A stretch of DNA of 64,000 bases from Eledone cirrhosa (Eukaryota): positions 113,522,001-113,586,000 of the forward strand of contig OZ024743.1 in assembly GCA_964016885.1 (NCBI GenBank), written 5' to 3'. Of this stretch, positions 8,849-41,765 are shown piece after piece. The stretch's first letter is position 1. Each line of letters opens with the position of its first letter. Both the position numbers and the translations under genes were made by a program. Under the pieces are notes generated by a model. The model was not told where the DNA came from, did not search any database, and saw nothing but the letters and a program-made list of their open reading frames with translations.

Positions 8849-8989
8849 ATACATATATATAATAATCAGAACATATTTTCTCGTTCTTTAATGGCTTTGG
8901 CTATAAGGACCAGATCATCAGCATAGAGAAGTTCCCATGGGCAGCCAGTCTTAAACTTCTCTGTTATAGCCTGACGAATTATAATGCCA

Positions 8990-9935
8990 GCCCTCGCAAT
9001 TCGGATTTATCCCTAACTGGGATAAATTGCTGTGATCAACTTATAAAGTTTCTTGAAGATATCATCCGGATCACTGATAGCTGCTCATGGGTGGATGTTG
9101 TTTACCTTGACTTTGCTAAAGCTTTCAATTCTGTGCCACACAAAAGACTTATGGCAAAATTCTCTGAAATAGGTGTGAGAGATGATCTTTTTAACTGGTT
9201 GAAGTCCTTCATTCTCAATCGAAAAGAGGTAGTCACAGTTGTAAGGCAGCATTCTTCACCCTATGAGATGTCATCTGGTGTACTGCAGGGATCTATTCTT
9301 TTGTTTGTTGCATATATTAATGACATAGATGCCAACTTAAAGAATGCCACATTGCTAAAATGTGCAGATGACATCAAGCTGTACCTTGAGATAAAAAGGA
9401 CAGATCCTGAACACTATAGATCTTTCCTGCAATCAGACCTGGACACAATGCAGCAATGGATCACCGACTGGCAACTCAAGCTGGCTGTGGACAAGTATAC
9501 CACCATGCATTTTGGGAGGAAAAAACCCAGCATTCACACTCCCTCCACAATACTAATATCAAAAAGTCTTCTTGTGAACGTGACCTGGGCATTACTGTCA
9601 GCAGCGATTTGCGTTGGACAAAGCACGTCTCTAAAATTGTCAAGAGGACCGAGGGTGTCTTAGCATTACTAAGCAAGACCCTTGTCAGCCACTCTCTAGC
9701 TATCTATTTAAAGCTGTATATAGCTTTGATGCGGCCACACTTAGAATTTTCATCACCAGTCTATCTTGCTCAGATCATTGACCTGGAAACTGTTCAGAGA
9801 TGTGCAACAAACGAATACCCTCCATCAGGCATCTACCATACTCTGAATGCCTTGCTTCCCTGGACATGGATACATTGAAACTTCGATGTCTGGCAACTGA
9901 CTTGGGAAACACCCACAAAATTATTCACCATCTAT
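8990..9935 (+). mobile_element. CR1/L2-group LINE RT fragment (pseudogene)
   Basis: DVVYLDFAKAFNSVPHKRL, SGVLQGSIL, CADDIKLY, ERDLGI and RPHLEF across frameshifted ORFs 9091..9663 and 9456..9878. Confidence 0.9.
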
Positions 9936-11955: not shown

Positions 11956-12442
11956 CATATATCTATGTACTTGTTTATATACAAATACAATTAGAAAAGA
12001 GGAGCAAGGAGAAATATGAAAGCAAGGATAGTATATATACATATCATATATATACATATATATATATGCATATATATATATTATATATATATATATATGC
12101 ATATATATATATCATATATATATATATATATATGCATATATATCATATATATATGATATGTATATATATATGTATATATATATATATATATGCATATATA
12201 TCATATATATATATATATGCATATATATATATGCATATATATATTGTTATACTTGGGGAGGGTCATATTTGTGTAATTATATTGGCAGAATTAATAACAT
12301 AACACACTCACTGTTTGGTTGCTTTTCGCTTCTGTGTCTTTTATATCGGTTAATCTAATTTATTCGGTCCTTAATGTTACCATTGACTGACCAACGGTTA
12401 AAAATACAGATACAATATAGACACAAACATATATATATAGTC

Positions 12443-12490
12443 TAACAAAGTTCTTTCGTTGCACATCTGCAACATCGTCAGTGGTGCTAT
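12443..12490 (-). ncRNA. Hammerhead ribozyme motif (left arm)
   Basis: Reverse complement reads CUGACGA-U-GUUGCA-GAUG-UGCAAC-GAA-AGAACU-U; stem I weak. Confidence 0.65.
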
Positions 12491-12830
12491 TATGTTTCCT
12501 CCCGTTGCATTGTATGCCTACGCCATCTTTATTTAGTCTGTTTATTTATTTATTTATTTGTTTATTTTTTTGTCTTCTCTGCGCATGCGTTTGCGTGTGT
12601 GTATAGTGTTTTGTTTGATGTGTGTTCGTGTTTGGGTGACTGTGTATTTGTTATTGTATTCTATCTTAGTTTACTAGTGTGTGTTTATATGTGTTTGTTA
12701 TTATTGTGCTTGTGTATGTACTTATTTATTTATTTATTTATACTCCTCTTAGGTCAGTGTTGTTTGTTTGGGTGTTGTTGTTATTCCATTCATTTTTTCT
12801 GTTTAGCCTTGGCCTTCTAAGGAAACATAA

Positions 12831-12877
12831 TAGCACCACTGACGATGTTGCAGATGTGCAACGAAAGAACTTTGTTA
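12831..12877 (+). ncRNA. Hammerhead ribozyme motif (right arm)
   Basis: CUGACGA 12839-45, stem II GUUGCA/UGCAAC, GAAA 12863-66, AGAACU-U; stem I weak (CA/UG, or UAGCA/UGUUA offset). Confidence 0.65.
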
Positions 12878-13142
12878 GACTATATATATATGTTTGTGTC
12901 TATATTGTATCTGTATTTTTTACCGTTGGTCAGTCAATGGAAACATTGAGGATCGAATAAATTAAATTAACCGATATAAAAGACACAGAAGCGAAAACCA
13001 ACCAAGCAGTAAGTGTGTTCTGTTATTAATTCTGCCAATATAATTACACAAATATGACCCTCCCCAAGTATAACAATATTTGTTTCGACACACGATTTCA
13101 TATCAAAAACCTCGCAAAACTAATTTATCGCTGTATATATAT

Positions 13143-14615
13143 ATCATCATCATCATCATCATCATCATCACCATCGTTTAACGTCCGTCTTGAGCTCCTC
13201 TGTTATAGCCTGAAGGCAATAATAAATAGTAGGGGGCTAAGGACGGAGCCCTGATGAACATCAACTTTTACGCTAAACTCTTTACTATATTCGTTGTTAA
13301 TTCTAACCTTGCTGACTGTTTCTTTATACATGGCTTGTATAGCTCTCACAAGCCATTCATCAACACCTAGTTTTCTAAGAGCCCACCAGATAATCGAGCG
13401 GGGTACTCTGTCAAAGGCTTTCTCCAAGTCAACAAAAGCTAAGTATAGGGGTTTACTTTTAGCTAGGTACTTCTCCTGTAGTTGTCGTACAATGAAGAGA
13501 GCGTCTGTTGTACTTTTACCTGACACGAACCCGAACTGCATTTCGTCTAGATCAATTCGCTCTCTGATTAGTTGCGCTATTACTTTTTCTGTGACCTTCA
13601 TGACCTGGTCAATTAATTTAATGCATCTATAGTTTCCCCTATCTAGGGCATCACCTTTACCCTTGTAGCAGTTAATGATGATGCTGCTGCGCCAGTCCTT
13701 CGGAACGACTCCATTCTGTATGACTTGGTTTACTATCCGGGTGACCATAGTGTGTCCCACCGTTCCAGATGCTTTCAGCATTTCAGCAACTATTTTCGAA
13801 GGCCCAGCCGCCTTGCCCGTCTTCATGTCTTTGATCGCCTTACTTATTATACTACCTTCAACTTGCACTGCTGGTCCCTCTATTGGATCGATGTGGGGGA
13901 GACTGTCTTTCTCCCAATTATTTTCCTCATTTAGTAGCCTTTCGTAGTGACACTTCCAAGCTACCTTCTTATCAGCGTCAGTGATGGCAAGTACACCATC
14001 ATCATTAAGGACACACTTCTCCCCGACAATATCACTGTTTTCCTTGACACATTGCCTAGCAATCCTGAACACCTCATGTTTTTGGTCCTCGCGTTGTAGA
14101 ACATGCTTGAACTTTCTTTCCTCTGCTTCCCTTCTTGCGAAGTACACTTGTCTCCTAGCTTCCCTCCTGGCCACTTGATAGTCTTCTCTACTTCCCCCAT
14201 CCTGCCATGCTTGCCAAGCCTGCTTTTTGGCCTTGATTGACCCCTCCACCTTACTGTTCCACCACCAAGTTACTCTCCTCCTGCCTATAGATCTGCTCCA
14301 GCCACAGGTTTCATCTGTCGCCTTCAGCAGGTTAGCTTTCAGGAATTCCCACTGTTCCTCTATATTGTACGTTTCTAATTCCTCTTCCATACTATCAAAA
14401 GCATCAAGTAATATGCTTTTAAATTTATTACTGGCTGTGGGGTCTTTTAACTTCCATATTTTTCTCCTGAGGATAGTGCTCTTCTATTGTCGAGTACGTC
14501 TCATCCTGACTATGAGGTCGCTAATTATGAGTCTATGTTGAGAGGTGCATTCTTCATGGGGGGGGGGGGTTAGTGTTTACAACAGACACTCTGTCACGTC
14601 TCCTGGTAAGGATAT
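13143..14615 (-). mobile_element. RTE-clade LINE, internally deleted copy
   Basis: ORF 13203..14390 is closely similar to the RT ORF at 1430-2640. The (GAT)n tail and terminal ~20 nt are fused directly to mid-RT at ~13188. Confidence 0.92.
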
Positions 14616-23771: not shown

Positions 23772-26700
23772 ATATCTTTCTTTATTTGCCACAGGGGCGT
23801 ACAAAAATAGGACATTACAAGACGTGACGGCAGAGGTTTTACATAAAAATAACTTTAATATTAATAAATAACAATAAACTATATATAATAAAATAACAAT
23901 TGAAATCCCCAATAGGGGGGAACGTTACTGCAGGGTTGTTTTACACCCCGTGGATAGAACAACCCTCAACACCAGGAACACGTTTTGTAGGTGTTTCTGT
24001 CTTCCCTCTGTTTATCTTCCTCAACCTACAGGTTTTTATACAGAGAAGCCCCATTCACTCGGACCATTTTTGCCACATTCACCCACCTTTCAGCGAATTT
24101 ACTGAGGTGTAGCACCTCTCTCTCCACTCTCACCTTCCTTCTAAAGTGATACTTAAAGAAGAGGATAAGTTGTTGTCCGGAGAGAAAGGTGTTTGCCCTC
24201 TGTCGTTTTAACCTCGTCCACCATATTACCTCTTTCGCCATAGCCACCAGACAGAGCAAAACCACCTCTCCTTCGTTCTTAAATGAAGGCGGCGGGGTGA
24301 TCCTCCCGATGGACTCGGCTGACAACTGGATGCGTCCCACATGTGATAACAGCTGTTCGACATAATTCCACAGGTCGGTCACCCCTGGGCACTGAACAAT
24401 TGCGTGAGAACGGTTTCGATGTCCTGCTCGCATCTTCGACAGGTCCTTTTGGCAGCATCTCTGCCAGGGCGTCCATGCCTGTAGATTTTGTCTCGAACTG
24501 GTAGAGCTCCTCGATAGCACTGCCAGACCAGAGACCTCTGGAAGTTATCCATAGGCCCTGGACGGAAAGTCCTCTCGAACAGACTGGTCAGTTCGTCCTC
24601 TTCGATGCCTAGAGTTTCCCCGAGAACGTCGTCACACTTATCCTCCATTAATCCCCTATAGAATGTCGAAGTGGAGCCTCCGCTGATCGCCGTTTCCGCT
24701 TGGTAGAGGGCTGTGAGCGCCTGTAGGCACTCGAGGTGCCAGGCACCCGTTTTCGGTCTTCGCTTGACCAAGGACTGCAGCTCTGTTAGTGAGACGAGTT
24801 GTGGAAGAGCTTGTCTCACAAACGACAGCCACACCGGTTCAACGGTCAGGAATACCTAGAGATGGTGTAGCCTCAGCGCATGTTTGCGCATCAGCCACGG
24901 CATGCCCAGCCCTCCGTTAGAAGGGTGTTGACAGCAGATGGATCTCCTCACCAATGGAGCCTGTTGCTTCCAGAGGAACTTGAAGAGCAGGTGTTCCATT
25001 TTGGTAAGGTATTCGCGGGGGCAAGGCACGACTGTCAAGCAGTAGTAGATGACGGACGCTATGTAAGTGTTCGCCACCTCCACTCAACCTTTCAAGGAGA
25101 GTTTGCACTCAGCCCACTTCTGGGTGAGTGCAAACACCTTCGCCGTGACCTCGTTCCAGTTCTTGTCCACCTGGAGGTCTGGACCAAACCAGACTCCGAG
25201 CAATTTCACCGGTCCTTCCGTCCAGCGTCCAACGACACTGTCAGAAGGCATGGGTTTGCCTCTCCATGTGCCGAGTTGCAAACCGACAGACTTGTTTGGG
25301 TTTAGTCTTGCTCCTGTCAACGTTTCATATTCCTGTAATAGGTTGCCGATTACCCCAATTTCCGAGGTTTTTGACACCATTACGCTTATGTCGTCGGCAT
25401 AGGCTGACGCTACTTTCCGCAGTCCTGATTCGATCGGGATGCCCTGCAACAGCTCCAATTTCCGCAGTAACGACTCGTGAGTCAGTACATACAGAATGGA
25501 GGAGAGAGGACATCCCTGATGGATGGAACGCATGATTTGGAATGGCTCCGATAGGTAGCCATTCACCTTAACTGCCGAGCAGATGCTGGTGTGCATGGCA
25601 GCGATCCAGCCTCTCAAGACCAGACCGAAGCCGGCCGCCTTGAGAACTGCTTTCAAGTATTGATGGTCGACCCTATCAAATGCCTTAGACTGATCTATAT
25701 TGATCAGAGCCCCACCAAAGCCAGGTTTACACCCTACCCTCTCTATGATGCATCGCATGAGGTAGAGGTTGTCGTGTATGGACCTGGTCGGAATTGCACA
25801 CGTTTGGGCTTCCCCTACCAGGTTCTCGACGACAAGCACCAGCCTTGCTGCTAACACCTTGGCCAAAATCTTTAACTCTGTGTTGAGCAGAGTTATGGGC
25901 CTGAAATTTCTTATCTCATCCCCCTTGTTCTCATCTTTCCTGATCAGAGTTACAATGCCTCTGCCTACAGAACTGGGAATCCTCCCATTCTGCTGCCAGT
26001 TGCAGTAGACCACTTCGAGGACGCCAGAGAACAAGTCTGGCATGCCTATGTAAAACTCATAGGGTAGACCATCTAAACCAGGTGATTTGCATTTCCCGCA
26101 GCGGCCTAGGGCATCTTCTATTTCGCCTGCCATGATCGGCCTTTCGCAGCTCTCCGCATCCATGCTCAAGAGTTGCAGTACGCCTTCGAGGTAGGAGCTG
26201 AAGTCCATCACCTCACTCGATGTACCGCTTTGCCCGAACAGTTGTGCAAAATGCTGCTGGATGGCCGCACACATCTGCTTGGATTCAAGTATAATGCGTC
26301 CATCTTTGTCTTGCAAAGACCGAATTGTGGATTTGTTGCCACTTTTTGCCTCTGCCACTTGGGCCCAGCTAACAGCTTTGGCTCCCTCGTTTCTTAGAGC
26401 ACGTGTTCTACTTCTGACAATACAACCTTCGTGTTTCACGTTGAAGAACTGGTCTAGTGCCGTTCTCACCGCTAGCATGTCAGCTGTACTGCCATTCCTA
26501 AGTGCCTCTTCTATTTTAGCTACCAGTTCCTTTTCAGTTTTTTTTTTTTTCTAAAGCTACTTCCTTGCTAAATGCTATCGATTCTATTCTAATTGCTCTC
26601 TTGAGAGAGCTCCACCACCTATTGTTGACGATCGCCCCCGTCAACTGGCACTTAACTAAGGTGCTAATCCGTTTACTGTAGGCCTTACGCGCAGGGAGCG

Positions 26701-28539: not shown

Positions 28540-29225
28540 TAATGGTTTCTGATTTAGGCACAAGGCCAACAATTTTGTGGGAGGGGGAAATCAATTAAAT
28601 CGACCCCAGTGTCTTACTGGTACTTTATTTTATCAACCTCATAAGGATGAAAGGCAAAGCTAACATCAGTGGGATTTGAACTAAAAATGTAAAGTGCTGT
28701 AACTGAGTTCAAATTCCACCGACGTCAACTCTGCTTTTCATCTTTCCAGGCTAGATAAAATGAAGTAACAGTTAAGATCTCGACTTGGTATAATCGACTT
28801 TCCCTTTCCTCCAAATTGCTAGTCTTGTGCTAATTCTAAAAAGAGTTAATAATAATAATTGTTTCTACTTTAGGCACAAGGCCAGCAATTTTGTGGGGGA
28901 AGGGGAAATAAATTAAATCAACCTCAGTGCATTACCGGTACTTTATTTTATTGACCTCGTAAGGATGAAAGGCAAAGCTAATCTCGGCGGGATTTGAACT
29001 CAGAACGTAAAGGGCCATAACTCTATGCCACAAAGCATAATGTCTGACACTCTAATGGTACTGCCAATGGTTTCTAATATAGGCACAAAGCCAGGAATTT
29101 TTGGGCAAAAGGGAAAATCAATTATATTGACTCCAGTACTTCATGGGTCCTCAGAGTTTACCTCTGCAAGATTTGAAACTAGAATATAAAAGGCTGTAAA
29201 CATGATTCTGCTAATTCACCAACCT
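28540..29225. mobile_element. Cluster of 4 family A SINE copies in mixed orientation
   Basis: Repeated GGCACAAGGCC...GGATGAAAGGCAAAG motifs; the copies at ~28705 are joined head to head. Confidence 0.8.
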
Positions 29226-29262
29226 TAGACACTTTAGATAATGTAATGTTTGTATGATTGAC

Positions 29263-32078
29263 TGCTCCTATTAATACCAACCACTTTACAGAGTGTATTG
29301 GGTGCATGCTCCTATTAATACCAACCACTTTACAGAGTGTATTGGGTGCATGCTACTATTAATACCAACCACTTTACAGAGTGTATTGGGTGCATGTTAC
29401 TATTAATACCAACCACTTTACAGAGTGTATTGGGTGCATGTTACTATTAATACCAACCACTTTACAGAGTGTATTGGGTGCATGTTACTATTAATACCAA
29501 CCACTTTACAGAGTGTATTGGGTGCATGCTCCTATTAACACCAACAACTTTACAGAGTGTATTGGGTGCATGCTCCTATTAACACCAACCACTTTACAGA
29601 GTGTATTGGGTGCATGCTCCTATTAACACCAACCACTTTACAGAGTGTATTGGGTGCATGCTACTATTAACACCAACCACTTTACAGAGTGTATTGGATG
29701 CATGCTACTATTAACACCAACCACTTTACAGAGTGTATTGGGTGCATGCTACTATTAACACCAACCACTTTACAGAGTGTATTAGGTGCATGCTACTATT
29801 AACACCAACCACTTTACAGAGTGTATTGGGTGCATGCTACTATTAATACCAACCACTTTACAAAGTGTATTGGGTGCATGCTCCTAATAATACCGACCAC
29901 TTTACAGAGTGTATTGGGTGCATGCTACTATTAACACCAACCATTTTACAGAGTGTATTGGGTGCATGCTCCTATTAACACCAACCACTTTACAGAGTGT
30001 ATTGGGTGCATGCTACTATTAATACTGACCACTTTACAGAGTGTATTGGGTGCATGCTACTATTAACACCAACCACTTTACAGAGTGTATTGGGTGCATG
30101 TTACTATTAATACCAACCACTTTACAGAGTGTATTGGGTGCATGTTACTATTAATACCAACCACTTTACAGAGTGTATTGGGTGCATGCTACTATTAATA
30201 CCGACCACTTTACAGAGTGTATTGGGTGCATGCTACTATTAATACCGACCACTTTACAGAGTGTATTGGGTGCATGCTACTATTAATACCGACCACTTTA
30301 CAGAGTGTATTGGGTGCATGCTACTATTAATACCGACCACTTTACAGAGTGTATTGGGTGCATGCTACTATTAACACCAACCACTTTACAGAGTGTATTG
30401 GGTGCATGCTACTATTAACACCAACCACTTTACAGAGTGTATTGGGTAAATGCTACTATTAACACCGACCACTTTACAGAGTGTATTGGGTGCATGCTAC
30501 TATTAATACCAACCACTTTACAGAGTGTATTGGGTGCATGCTACTATTAACACCAACCACTTTACAGAGTGTATTGGGTGCATGCTACTATTAATACCAA
30601 CCACTTTACAGAGTGTATTGGGTGCATGCTACTATTAACACCAACCACTTTACAGAGTGTATTGAGTGCATGCTACTATTAATACCGACCACTTTACAGA
30701 GTGTATTGGGTGCATGCTACTATTAACACCAACCACTTTACAGAGTGTATTGGGTGCATGCTCCTATTAACACCAACCACTTTACAGAGTGTATTGGGTG
30801 CATGCTACTATTAACACCAACCACTTTACAGAGTGTATTGGGTGCATGCTACTATTAATACCAACCACTTTACAGAGTGTATTGGGTGCATGCTACTATT
30901 AATACCGACCACTTTACAGAGTGTATTGGGTGCATGCTACTATTAATACCGACCACTTTACAGAGTGTATTGGGTGCATGCTCCTATTAATACCGACCAC
31001 TTTACAGAGTGTATTGGGTGCATGCTCCTATTAATACCGACCACTTTACAGAGTGTATTGGGTGCATGCTACTATTAATACCGACCACTTTACAGAGTGT
31101 ATTGGGTGCATGCTACTATTAATACCGACCACTTTACAGAGTGTATTGGGTGCATGCTACTATTAATACCGACCACTTTACAGAGTGTATTGGGTGCATG
31201 CTACTATTAATACCGACCACTTTACAGAGTGTATTGGGTGCATGCTACTATTAATACCAACCACTTTACAGAGTGTATTGGGTGCATGCTACTATTAATA
31301 CCAACCACTTTACAGAGTGTATTGGGTGCATGCTACTATTAATACCGACCACTTTACAGAGTGTATTGGGTGCATGCTACTATTAATACCAACCACTTTA
31401 CAGAGTGTATTGGGTGCATGCTACTATTAACACCAACCACTTTACAGAGTGTATTGGGTGCATGCTACTATTAACACCAACCACTTTACAGAGTGTATTG
31501 GGTGCATGCTACTATTAATACCGACCACTTTACAGAGTGTATTGGGTGCATGCTACTATTAACACCAACCACTTTACAGAGTGTATTGGGTGCATGCTAC
31601 TATTAACACCAACCACTTTACAGAGTGTATTGGGTGCATGCTACTATTAATACCGACCACTTTACAGAGTGTATTGGGTGCATGCTACTATTAATACCAA
31701 CCATTTTACAGAGTGTATTGGGTGCATGCTCCTATTAACACCAACCACTTTACAGAGTGTATTGGGTGCATGCTACTATTAATACCAACCACTTTACAGA
31801 GTGTATTGGGTGCATGCTACTATTAACACCAACCACTTTACAGAGTGTATTGGGTGCATGCTACTATTAATACCGACCACTTTACAGAGTGTATTGGGTG
31901 CATGCTACTATTAACACCAACCACTTTACAGAGTGTATTGGGTGCATGCTCCTATTAACACCAACCACTTTACAGAGTGTATTGGGTGCATGCTACTATT
32001 AACACCAACCACTTTACAGAGTGTATTGGGTGCATGCTACTATTAACACCAACCACTTTACAGAATGTGTTGGGTGCA
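29263..32078 (+). repeat. 44-bp satellite, 64 units (TGCTACTATTAA[T/C]ACC[A/G]ACCACTTTACAGAGTGTATTGGGTGCA)
   Basis: CCACTTT recurs every 44 nt from 29281 to 32053 without phase shift. Confidence 0.97.
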
Positions 32079-33174
32079 TTTTATTCTGTCATCAGGATTA
32101 TAAGATGTTGCTACGTTTTCAGTATAACTAAAGGATCCTTTGAATCTTACACTGTCCCTAATTGTTTGACTACATTTTACAGAGTGCACAAGGTGCATTT
32201 TATAATTGCACCTTCACTAGTGAGTTAGTGGAGGTGCCTGGCCTTGTGGTAAGGGTGTTGGACTTAGGATTATAATGTTGTAGATGAGTACCAGCAATAG
32301 CTGGGAGTTTAACCCTGTGATAGACTGGCATCCTGTCCAGTGGGGAGGGGGTCTTGTACTCTCAGTTACTTCACACCATGAAACTAGGATAAGCACTGGC
32401 CTAATTAGCCTTCTGGCTTAAGACAGACTTTAGACTTTTTAGACTAATGAGCTTGCCTTGCATTTCACTATCTAATATCAGAAACTGGTGAATAGAGAAA
32501 AGAAAGGTCTGATTTTCAGATCGAACTAAGAAAACAAAACAACTTTTTTATTGGCCTTTCCATTGCTGATAACTCTCTGAAACGAGAGCACAGAGAACTA
32601 AAATAAATAGCAAGACTCCATTGCTCTAATGACTTGGCCAATTGTCTTTTTGTTGTTTTTTATGAGTAAATATTTGTTAATTATAAAGGAGAAGGTAGTT
32701 TAACAAGGAAATAATGGCAATATGATTAATAAATTGAACAGATGGCATAATGTATCAACATGTCTAAATGAAAAGAGCAGCAGACAACATTGTCATGTTG
32801 TGACATACAGATATGAAGAGACAGAAAATAATGTTATTTTGTTTCACTATTTGTTGTTGTTTTATTGTATGTAATAACTGTAATTATATTTTTTTTTTTA
32901 CTCATCTTGAAATTATAATTATTTTATCAGACTATATGTGGTAGTGGTAGCAGTACACTTGAGTTTTACTTGGTTTACAACACTAGTTGGTTGATGGCAA
33001 TAGGAAGAAATGATTATGATGATGATGGTGGTCGAAGTGGTACTGCCACTTGTGGCTGCTGCTGCTACTATTATGTTCTGAGTTGAAATCCGGCCAAGGT
33101 TAAATTTGCCTTTCATCCTTCTTGGTGGGGGTGGGGTTGATAAAATAAACTACCATTCAAATACTGAGATCAGT

Positions 33175-40329: not shown

Positions 40330-40830
40330 TTGGTTTAATTTCAATTATTTTGATTTTTCTTTTCTAGCTTAGTTATGTAGAGCTAAGCTACATATCTCTG
40401 TAAAGTTTATTTTCAATATAGAAATAATAAAGAAAAAGGGGAACAAAAGGAAAGAAAGAATAGGGAAATATATTAAAAAAAAAAAAGAGAGAGAGAGAAA
40501 GAAAGAAGAAAAAGAACGGAAATGGGAGGGGATGGCAAGAGCTCTGGTGAGAGGGGGTGAGGGGCAGAGGTGATTGGGCTTTTGGCCTAGGGCAAGAGGG
40601 CAGAAGTGCTGCGCCCCACAGCCAAGATGGCAAAAGCATTCCCACGGATGATGGCCAGTGACACCTGCTGCAACAGCCACCCAACCTCACGGGACTCCCT
40701 CCTCAGGCAGGCTGCCAATGCTCCGATCTTGCGGAGGAGCTCGACAGTACGGGGTCCAAGTACGCCTGTGGTCTCAACGGTGACCGGTGCGAAGAGGAAG
40801 CGGCCGGACAAACCCTGGTGTTTGTTTATT
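40330..40830 (-). mobile_element. 3' fragment of a CRE-like (restriction-like endonuclease) non-LTR retrotransposon
   Basis: ORF 40587..40847: FLFAPVTVETTGVLGP...LLRKIG...WLLQQVSLAIIRGNAFAIL resembles the F.P..VET.G..G...QR.S.AI.RGNA C-terminal signature; GC-rich relative to flanks. Confidence 0.7.
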
Positions 40831-41228
40831 TTACGTTCTTCTGCCATGCTGGAGTTTGTGGAGTGACTAAGTTGGAGGTGGAGAAGGGAATGGGAAGAGG
40901 GTGGTTATTTTCATGCTAACATAAATTGAAGTCTTTATCTAGTATCGCATAGGCTGTGGCTTTACTGATGCTAACTTCATTTAATATTTTACATTTTATG
41001 GGTGGCTTTGGTCTGTATCAGTCCAAGGCCAGGCTCATTGTTAATTCTGCTCTGGTTTAGTGGCCCTTCTTTGGTTGTATTTCATCTGGGTATTTATCAT
41101 TATGTCATTAGATCATATGGATTTGGAGCTTATGGTTTATCCCAACGGTTATTTTGTGTGTGTGTTTTCATTTCATTTCATAAATGAAAACACACACACA
41201 CATAGAACAAACAACTTACCCGGATGTG

Positions 41229-41275
41229 GCGCATGCGCAAACTGAGCACGCAACCCACACACAAACAAAATGGCG
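41229..41275 (+). promoter_or_regulatory. NRF1-like (GCGCATGCGC) and YY1-like (AAAATGGCG) motifs upstream of HHR
   Basis: Exact motif matches; same order on the minus strand at 12589-12580 and 12530-12521. Confidence 0.5.
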
Positions 41276-41321
41276 TAGGATAGAAGAAAGGAAAGGCACA
41301 GAAACGAAGAAAGAAATCCCC

Positions 41322-41366
41322 AGTCACTGAAGAGGTCACAGAGTGTGTGACGAAAGAACTATGACT
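41322..41366 (+). ncRNA. Type I hammerhead ribozyme
   Basis: AGUCA-CUGAAGA-G-GUCACA-GAGUG-UGUGAC-GAA-AGAACU-A-UGACU: 5-bp stem I, 6-bp stem II, minimal stem III, CUA triplet (cut after 41361). Confidence 0.8.
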
Positions 41367-41447
41367 ATATATATATAAACAACTATATATATATAAACAA
41401 CTATCTGGTTGTGGAACCAACCAACCAACCAGAAATTTATAAATTTC

Positions 41448-41487
41448 AGTCACTGAAGAGGTCACAGAGTGTGTGACGAAAGAACTG
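41448..41487 (+). ncRNA. Second tandem hammerhead copy (cleavage site altered to CUG)
   Basis: Core and stem II identical to 41322, 126 nt downstream; the 3' strand of stem I differs. Confidence 0.6.
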
Positions 41488-41689
41488 TAAATTTATAAAT
41501 ATATATTAAATTAAATTGAAGTGAAAGCAACTGGTGCGTGTGTTTCTTATTGGCAACATGACCCTCCCAAAGTATAACAATATCGGTTTCAACACACGAT
41601 TTCAGATAAAGAATCTTGCTAAACAAATTCAGAAACGATATATATATATATATATATATATATAATGTGTATATATATATATATATATA

Positions 41690-41765
41690 CAGGGTGTCCC
41701 AAAAATGTATACACACTTTAACAGCACTCTAATCAAAGGGTGTATACATTTTTTGGGATATCCTG
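41690..41765. mobile_element. 76-bp Tc1/mariner-type mini-MITE
   Basis: TIRs CAGGGTGTCCCAAAAATGTATACAC / GTGTATACATTTTTTGGGATATCCTG within (TA)n. Confidence 0.85.

What the first reader, a model, noticed from the sequence alone, without database searches (positions are those of the whole stretch)
41200..41640. Promoter-like motifs, tandem hammerheads 126 nt apart and a conserved terminus: retrozyme-like unit
The order NRF1-like, YY1-like, HHR, HHR, terminus matches the minus-strand order at 12589-12241 (one HHR there). Tandem HHRs with a 2-bp stem III are the arrangement that allows dimeric folding and release of unit-length RNA that can circularise. Here the second site is CUG, normally uncleavable, so it may act only as the dimer partner for cleavage after 41361 (inference).
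Basis: partly seen in the sequence, partly recalled or inferred. Interest (0 to 1): 0.75.

Follow-up and report, generated by a model that had tools for sequence, protein, structure and literature searches.

The report
Penelope element end with duplicated hammerhead
This is the broken-off end of a very common Penelope-type jumping gene, in which a one-off 40-base duplication made a second, incomplete copy of its predicted self-cutting RNA motif; it is ordinary and not a retrozyme, though the ends of sister copies suggest where the element's likely promoter starts transcription.

Summary
The motifs are real, but the unit is not a retrozyme. 41182-41640 is the 5'-truncated pseudo-LTR plus tail of a Penelope-like element (PLE). 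[quoted passage not shown] The 'conserved terminus' is the ORF start (MTLPKYNN). The hammerhead 36-mer has 8,349 exact copies. The second 'hammerhead' is an exact 40-nt copy of 41321-41360 inserted at 41447-41486. Its junction occurs once in the genome, it has no stem I partner strand, and its CUG comes from the flank. None of 98 unselected sisters has a second hammerhead within 440 nt. The 12241-13131 element is an inverted pair of a sister PLE family (~60% protein identity). The promoter idea gains indirect support: both families keep the NRF1-like and YY1-like motifs, and 17 of 98 copies stop just 5' of the YY1-like motif, as expected of a transcription start on uncut RNA. Simple-repeat breakage is a rival, and no RNA run was available. 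The scan has already reported PLE hammerheads elsewhere in this genome.

The parts
41158..41197 (.). 5' junction: 16-bp inverted repeat (41158-41173 / 41182-41197) around TTTCA-type repeats; looks like a fold-back or templated join (inferred)
   Evidence: in runs X1 and X3 a single-copy contig leaves the window sequence at 41165
41182..41640 (+). 5'-truncated pseudo-LTR plus tail of PLE family A, starting a few nt after the position of the ORF stop codon in full copies; about 160 nt deleted at a TAC microhomology (41217-41219) relative to L002
41229..41238 (.). GCGCATGCGC, NRF1-like motif (label recalled, not from a call); CGCATGCGCA shared with family B
41257..41261 (+). Inferred transcription start: equivalent of the place where sister copies' 5' ends pile up (9 of the 17 ends lie 9-13 nt 5' of ATGGCG)
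   Evidence: inference, no RNA data
41267..41278 (+). AAAATGGCGTAG, YY1-like motif (label recalled); also reads Met-Ala-stop in both families
41322..41366 (+). Minimal type I hammerhead: stem I 5 bp, extra G between A9 and G10.1, stem II 6 bp, helix III GAAC, predicted site CUA| after 41361
41369..41402 (+). Local tandem duplication of about 18 nt, not seen in the other aligned copies
41447..41486 (+). Private 40-nt insert identical to 41321-41360 (stem I 5' strand, core, stem II, helix III, U16.1); no cleavage nucleotide or stem I 3' strand of its own
41558..41583 (+). ORF start MTLPKYNN = the 'conserved terminus'; short 3' end of many copies
41584..41640 (+). 57-nt tail (further ORF codons), long 3' end, followed by (TA)n
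12241..13131 (.). Separate insertion of sister PLE family B: minus-strand copy (12820-12241, short end) and inverted plus-strand copy (12820-13131, with tail); hammerheads at 12481 (-) and 12839 (+)

Best explanation
This stretch is the 5'-truncated end (pseudo-LTR plus tail) of an abundant Penelope-like retroelement, and the second hammerhead is a one-off 40-nt duplication that likely does nothing. Shown: family membership, the ORF of full copies, the identity of the terminus with the ORF start, and the uniqueness and limits of the insert. Inferred mechanism: the pseudo-LTR holds a Pol II promoter (NRF1-like motif upstream, YY1-like motif just downstream of the start). The element's reverse transcriptase starts inside the ORF's first codons at one of two sites (short end, tail end), primes on a nicked (TA)n target and copies leftwards. 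Here it slipped or was repaired several times (deletion, 18-nt duplication, 40-nt templated insert, fold-back 5' join). The family hammerhead would cut only as a dimer, between pseudo-LTRs about 4.3 kb apart or in trans, and most templates appear to be copied uncut.
For: L035 holds a 1,286-aa open frame between single hammerheads 4,316 nt apart; many other copies have frames of 1,270-1,300 aa. The AlphaFold model of the C-terminal 736 aa (pLDDT 91.5) matches telomerase RTs best (Foldseek E 5e-8; VIA Z 15.2, rmsd 3.5-3.8). GIY-YIG passes the Pfam cutoff in two intact copies (23.9 vs 22.6 bits), preceded by CX4CxxC. Ends in the unselected sample of 98: 48 short then TA, 31 tail then TA, 5 run on, 4 other short, 10 no terminus found. 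Insert identical to 41321-41360, with the flanks contiguous in 4 of 5 sisters checked; junction count 1; second hammerhead within 440 nt in 0 of 98 family A and 0 of 100 family B copies. The architecture matches PMC8557442, PMC4209133 and PMC11167929.
Against: Pfam found nothing in the two long ORFs as a whole and only sub-cutoff RVT_1 hits in 3 of 13 homologues. No RNA data test the promoter or cleavage. No listed contig of four public runs spans the insert junction, so an assembly error or a private allele is not excluded. The energy model cannot rule out some dimer cleavage.
Confidence: 0.9

Rival explanations
1. The accidental insert works as an enzyme strand: core 2 pairs with site 1 and lets this solo copy cut itself after 41361. 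No circle would be released.
For: The insert carries an intact stem I 5' strand, core, stem II and helix III half, and all 9 required pairs are Watson-Crick. Tandem min-hammerheads showed low but detectable cleavage in vitro (PMC4209133). The locus keeps the putative promoter.
Against: Copy 2 is predicted to be locked in a long hairpin with its flanks; trans stem I probability <=0.001. The GAAC helix III duplex is the weakest variant (+1.4 kcal/mol against -1.7 for GGAC and -5.0 for GATC). The hairpin adds about 5 kcal/mol. An Anolis PLE hammerhead needed the element's protein to cut (PMC11167929).
Confidence: 0.15
2. The unit is a non-LTR retrozyme, or a nascent one, that yields a 126-nt circular RNA and spreads.
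For: A type I hammerhead core repeated at short distance; retrozymes are proposed to derive from PLE pseudo-LTRs (bioRxiv 10.64898/2026.07.22.740005).
Against: The second site is CUG with 1 of 5 stem I pairs; the junction is single-copy; there is no repeated monomer. Of 25 loci with close same-strand pairs, 9 others have both sites intact and are better candidates, none seen amplified.
Confidence: 0.03
3. The insert is a fossil of self-cleavage: reverse transcriptase jumped onto the 3' end of a cleaved 5' fragment, copied 40 nt and jumped back.
For: The insert ends at U16.1, one nucleotide short of the predicted cut.
Against: Of 42 genome-wide breaks at this point, the 30 inspected were mostly microhomology indels or sub-family variants; only this locus re-inserted a hammerhead piece. 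5' breaks at the cut are only about twice a control window (68 vs 28 matches; 13 of the 68 are TA deletions). The locus has other slippage events.
Confidence: 0.08
4. The insert is an assembly error.
For: Single-copy junction; no listed contig of runs X1-X4 bridges it at 100% identity.
Against: Those runs may be another individual or allele, and the tool warns that a hole proves nothing. A clean 40-nt templated insert with other slippage marks nearby is biologically plausible, and similar private duplications occur at other loci.
Confidence: 0.07

Closest known systems
C-terminal EN+ Penelope-like elements, Neptune/Nematis type (Craig et al. 2021, PMC8557442; abstract, sections 11, 12, 15, passages and one supplement look-up read)
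   Same: Telomerase-like RT, CX2-5CxxC linker, GIY-YIG with a CCHH-like pattern at the C-terminus, partial tandems and inverted 5'-truncated copies, tail at one end, microsatellite targeting.
   Different: The tail is 57 nt rather than 30-40; DKG reads DKS(G). Neptune versus Nematis was not tested with a tree. The linker and CCHH pattern argue against Hydra, and the domain order against Naiad.
Minimal hammerheads in PLE pseudo-LTRs (Cervera and de la Pena 2014, PMC4209133; parts 1-2 of 4 read)
   Same: [quoted passage not shown]
   Different: Here a private same-strand partial duplicate. The parts read describe no such case and no promoter motifs.
Poseidon element of Anolis, internal RT initiation (Frangieh et al. 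2024, PMC11167929; parts 1-2 of 4 read)
   Same: Two 3' ends inside the start of the ORF define the tail; AT-rich targets; uncut RNA as the main template.
   Different: There the ends lie about 111-118 nt into the ORF and the hammerhead overlaps the start codon. Here the ends lie 26 and 83 nt in, and the hammerhead is about 200 nt upstream of the ATG.
Animal non-LTR retrozymes (PMC7229834, passages; bioRxiv 10.64898/2026.07.22.740005, parts 1-2 of 5)
   Same: Type I hammerhead, low GC, two cores within a few hundred bases, PLE ancestry proposed.
   Different: No repeated monomer, the second motif incomplete, single copy, minimal rather than canonical hammerhead, and the sequence is colinear with an autonomous PLE.
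Internal promoter of Drosophila virilis Penelope (Schostak et al. 2008, PMC2377424; abstract and section 16) and human NRF1/YY1 positioning (PMC11269187, passages)
   Same: A promoter in the terminal repeat; NRF1 sites lie upstream and YY1 sites just downstream of the start.
   Different: No NRF1- or YY1-like motifs are named for Penelope in what I read; binding in this animal is untested.

Membership tests
EN+ Penelope-like element | Single ORF with a telomerase-like RT | tested here: met
   In full-length sisters. The window copy holds only the first 27 codons.
EN+ Penelope-like element | C-terminal GIY-YIG endonuclease | tested here: met
   PF01541, 23.9 bits against a cutoff of 22.6, in L047 and L049
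EN+ Penelope-like element | Pseudo-LTRs from partial tandems; inverted 5'-truncated copies; tail | tested here: met
   12241-13131
EN+ Penelope-like element | Minimal type I hammerhead in the pseudo-LTR | tested here: met
   By sequence and covariation on 8 hand-picked variants: 89.6% of cells paired, 5 of 12 pairs changed on both sides. Cleavage not tested.
Neptune/Nematis clades | CX2-5CxxC linker and CCHH motif in the EN | tested here: met
   CIDKKCITC, then CTEGQC and two later His residues in L047; read by eye against the paper's description
Neptune/Nematis clades | RT groups with one of the two clades in a tree | not tested
   No named reference proteins were in hand
Hydra clade | CxCX5C linker, no CCHH, length under 3 kb | tested here: not met
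   Unit about 4.3 kb, CX4CxxC linker
Non-LTR retrozyme | At least two consecutive repeat units, each with a complete hammerhead | tested here: not met
   Second copy has 1 of 5 stem I pairs and N17 = G; the 126 nt is not repeated
Non-LTR retrozyme | Non-coding unit amplified as a family | tested here: not met
   Junction count 1; 67 of 98 sisters continue into a PLE ORF
Non-LTR retrozyme | Expressed as linear and circular unit-length RNA | not testable with these tools
   Needs RNA data
NRF1/YY1-type Pol II promoter | Start site between an upstream NRF1 site and a downstream YY1 site | tested here: inconclusive
   5' ends of copies pile up there, but simple-repeat tracts also collect ends; no CAGE or binding data

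The most novel reading that the evidence does not exclude
These Penelope-like elements use a conserved NRF1 + YY1 promoter in their pseudo-LTR, and its start site is written into the genome: many copies are short cDNAs running from the internal RT start in the ORF to the RNA's 5' end, straight through an intact hammerhead. Genomic copy ends would then map a retroelement promoter without RNA data, and show in vivo that templates are neither cut at the hammerhead nor all circular.
Probability: 0.5. Interest if true: 0.45.

Novelty: new member of a known kind. Interest (0 to 1): 0.22.

Why it matters
The finding as flagged matters little: it is one damaged copy among thousands. The family is more useful than the locus. 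It is young and large, so the statistics of its copy ends bear on an open question named in PMC8557442 and PMC11167929, namely what the PLE hammerhead does. The ends point to templates that begin upstream of the hammerhead and pass it uncut. Nine other loci with two intact hammerheads close together are ready-made tests of the idea that retrozymes arise from pseudo-LTR duplications.

Tried and rejected
Rfam scan at E<=1: 117 matches, nearly all microRNA-family models below their gathering scores, no hammerhead. Pfam on the two long ORFs: nothing. PDB sequence search: nothing. Single-sequence fold of the nuclease: pLDDT 52, not used. Sequencing runs: no RNA holder listed, so expression is untested. 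Contigs of X1-X4: none listed across the insert junction, which proves nothing. Looked for a pile-up of 5' ends at the cleavage site: 68 matches against 28 in a control window, most with A or TA microhomology, rejected as evidence of cleavage. Looked for other captured 5' cleavage fragments: none in 30 of 42 matches inspected. Looked for more distant families with the same hammerhead type: 8 matches, mostly decayed A- or B-like copies, so the motif comparison rests on two families. An intron from the conserved GTAGG after the YY1-like motif was considered; no shared acceptor was evident by eye, so it was dropped. Literature: three searches for PLE promoter motifs or start sites and two for cephalopod PLEs listed no paper that, by title, abstract or the passages I read, reports NRF1/YY1 motifs in pseudo-LTRs or this family; the library lacks most subscription journals. 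One supplement look-up in PMC8557442 showed octopus Naiad and Hydra entries (4 rows shown, more not read) and no MTLPKY; Repbase or Dfam may hold the family. G17 'strongly impairs' minimal hammerheads but is not absolute (PMC3884650, search listing only).

Full report
Observation. The NRF1-like decamer is at 41229-41238 and the YY1-like motif at 41267-41278 (both labels recalled, not from a call). Hammerhead cores start at 41327 and 41453. The first parses as AGTCA / CTGAAGA / G / GTCACA-GAGTG-TGTGAC / GAAA / GAAC / TA | TGACT, with the predicted cut after 41361. The second reads the same up to GAAC, then TG | TAAAT. The same order occurs on the minus strand at 12589-12241, but that element has a second hammerhead at 12839 in an inverted arm.

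What the element is. A search of the 3.0-Gb own genome gave 46 matches from 40 of 624 candidates scored. Reading upstream of them showed an open frame that ends just before the sequence in the window. L035 carries 1,286 codons between two single hammerheads 4,316 nt apart, and other copies have frames of 1,270-1,300 aa. Its best named relative is an Octopus vulgaris protein at 70% identity, so the host is likely an octopod (inference). A model of the last 736 residues (pLDDT 91.5) matches telomerase reverse transcriptases first. The C-terminus passes the Pfam GIY-YIG cutoff in two intact copies and follows a CX4CxxC linker. Pfam missed the two long ORFs as a whole. These are the marks of a C-terminal EN+ Penelope-like element of Neptune or Nematis type (PMC8557442); the clade was not tested with a tree.

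The terminus. 41558-41638 translates to MTLPKYNNIGFNTRFQIKNLAKQIQKR, and the family B copy to MTLPKYNNICFDTRFHIKNLAKLIYR. The terminus is conserved because it is the ORF start. It has 47,410 matches in the genome. Among 98 unselected family A copies, 48 end at the short site and 31 after the 57-nt tail, each followed by TA; 5 run on, 4 end short without TA and 10 showed no terminus. Two ends inside the ORF start are what PMC11167929 reports for internal RT initiation. Family B is about 60% identical in protein and has 2,799 exact hammerhead matches.

The second hammerhead. It is a 40-nt insert, 41447-41486, identical to 41321-41360; its two flanks are contiguous in 4 of 5 sisters checked, the fifth lacking the exact left flank. 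The G of 'CUG' is flank sequence, and only 1 of 5 stem I pairs can form. The junction occurs once against 8,349 exact copies of the hammerhead 36-mer. I fetched 99 of the first 100 listed family A copies (98 distinct) and all of the first 100 family B copies; none has a second hammerhead within 440 nt downstream. Genome-wide, 28 matches at 25 loci, this one included, have same-strand pairs 20-400 nt apart. Spacings run from 86 to 437 nt. Nine loci have both sites intact, and at six loci my pattern recognised fewer than two cores. The window copy also has a deletion of about 160 nt, an 18-nt duplication and a fold-back 5' join, so slippage during copying or repair is the simplest origin (inference). 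No listed contig of four public runs bridges the insert; this neither confirms nor excludes it.

Can it act as a dimer partner? All nine pairs needed for core 2 to act on site 1 are complementary, but copy 2 folds into a long hairpin with its own flanks, and the trans stem I has probability <=0.001. The constrained dimer costs 14.1 kcal/mol, about 5 of it due to that hairpin, against 9.5 for the natural pair in L069. Most natural close pairs cost 7.6-17.7, one degenerate array 18-21, and three loci (one shown to hold inverted segments) 44-89. The window is therefore unfavourable but not an outlier. The first hammerhead looks selected: 5 of 12 pairs change on both sides across 8 hand-picked variants (related sequences inflate such counts), and helix III varies among GAAC, GGAC and GATC. 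It fits the dimer-type minimal hammerheads of PMC4209133.

The promoter-like motifs. Between families A and B the pseudo-LTRs share only the hammerhead, the ORF start, low-complexity tracts, CGCATGCGCA and ATGGCGTAGG. In family A, 50 of 98 copies end within 600 nt upstream of the hammerhead, and 17 of them (13 loci) end between 10 nt inside and 14 nt 5' of ATGGCG, where about 2 are expected (p = 7e-8 by locus; window chosen after seeing the data). All of these are short pieces that stop at the short end or the tail, or show no terminus, and contain the hammerhead. In family B, tested afterwards, the same window holds 8 of 94 copies at risk (p = 0.013), and a wider window chosen post hoc holds 19. 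Against this: family B has a second pile of 12 apparent ends at a (TAAA)n tract, and both peaks lie beside simple repeats, so microhomology could explain part or all of it. The positions agree with human data in which NRF1 sites lie upstream and YY1 sites just downstream of the start (PMC11269187) and with a promoter in the Penelope terminal repeat (PMC2377424). ATGGCGTAG also reads Met-Ala-stop, which is another possible reason for its conservation. At the cleavage site itself the excess of 5' breaks is only about twofold and mostly carries TA microhomology.

Earlier notes. A look-up by sequence found nothing. A look-up in this genome showed several AI reports on PLE hammerheads and retrozyme-like repeats, one also suggesting uncut templates. 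I saw them after reaching my reading and do not count them as support.

Verdict. An ordinary PLE end with a private, probably inert partial duplication. New member of a known kind; interest 0.22. The start-site reading from copy ends is the one lead worth following.

Noticed in passing
L221-L300 and L301-L395 (G000 C1): 5' ends of PLE copies pile up just 5' of the YY1-like motif (17 of 98 in family A; weaker in family B), a possible genomic record of the transcription start.
   Followed up: partly
L206, L212, L215, L210/L211, L198, L200, L202, L207, L208: Nine loci with two or three intact same-strand hammerheads 116-437 nt apart (L210 is a 252-nt trimer with inverted segments); better proto-retrozyme candidates than the window locus.
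   Followed up: partly
L217-L219 (G000 C27): An array of degenerate hammerhead-bearing units of about 110 nt upstream of a pseudo-LTR end.
   Followed up: no
window 41165 (runs X1-X3): In X1 and X3 a single-copy contig matches 40814-41165 and carries about 280 further letters unlike the window, while an X2 contig runs on to 41211: possibly an empty and a filled allele in one sample.
   Followed up: no
window 41690-41765: About 80-bp element with inverted ends (CAGGGTGTCCC...GGGATATCCTG) flanked by TA, like a Tc1/mariner-type MITE (recalled), inside the (TA)n run after the tail.
   Followed up: no
window 40590-40830 (-): Repeated fragment whose translation resembles the C-terminal restriction-like endonuclease of CRE/R2-type LINEs (recalled; no Pfam hit).
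   Followed up: partly
window 56946 (+), 59239 (-), 57412 (-), 38776 (+): Further minimal hammerhead-like motifs of other types (CG or CUAG helix III), probably from other PLE families; two have core or stem changes.
   Followed up: no
window 12474-12486 and family B copies: 87 of 100 family B copies have GCACCA on the 5' side of stem I, which leaves a mismatch; only 2 have the fully pairing GCAACA form. A weak stem I did not stop amplification.
   Followed up: partly
window 29131-32200: 44-bp tandem minisatellite of at least 64 units.
   Followed up: no
window 8866-9660 (+), 13206-14483 (-), 25087-26550 (-): Three LINE-type reverse transcriptase fragments (RVT_1 above cutoff).
   Followed up: partly
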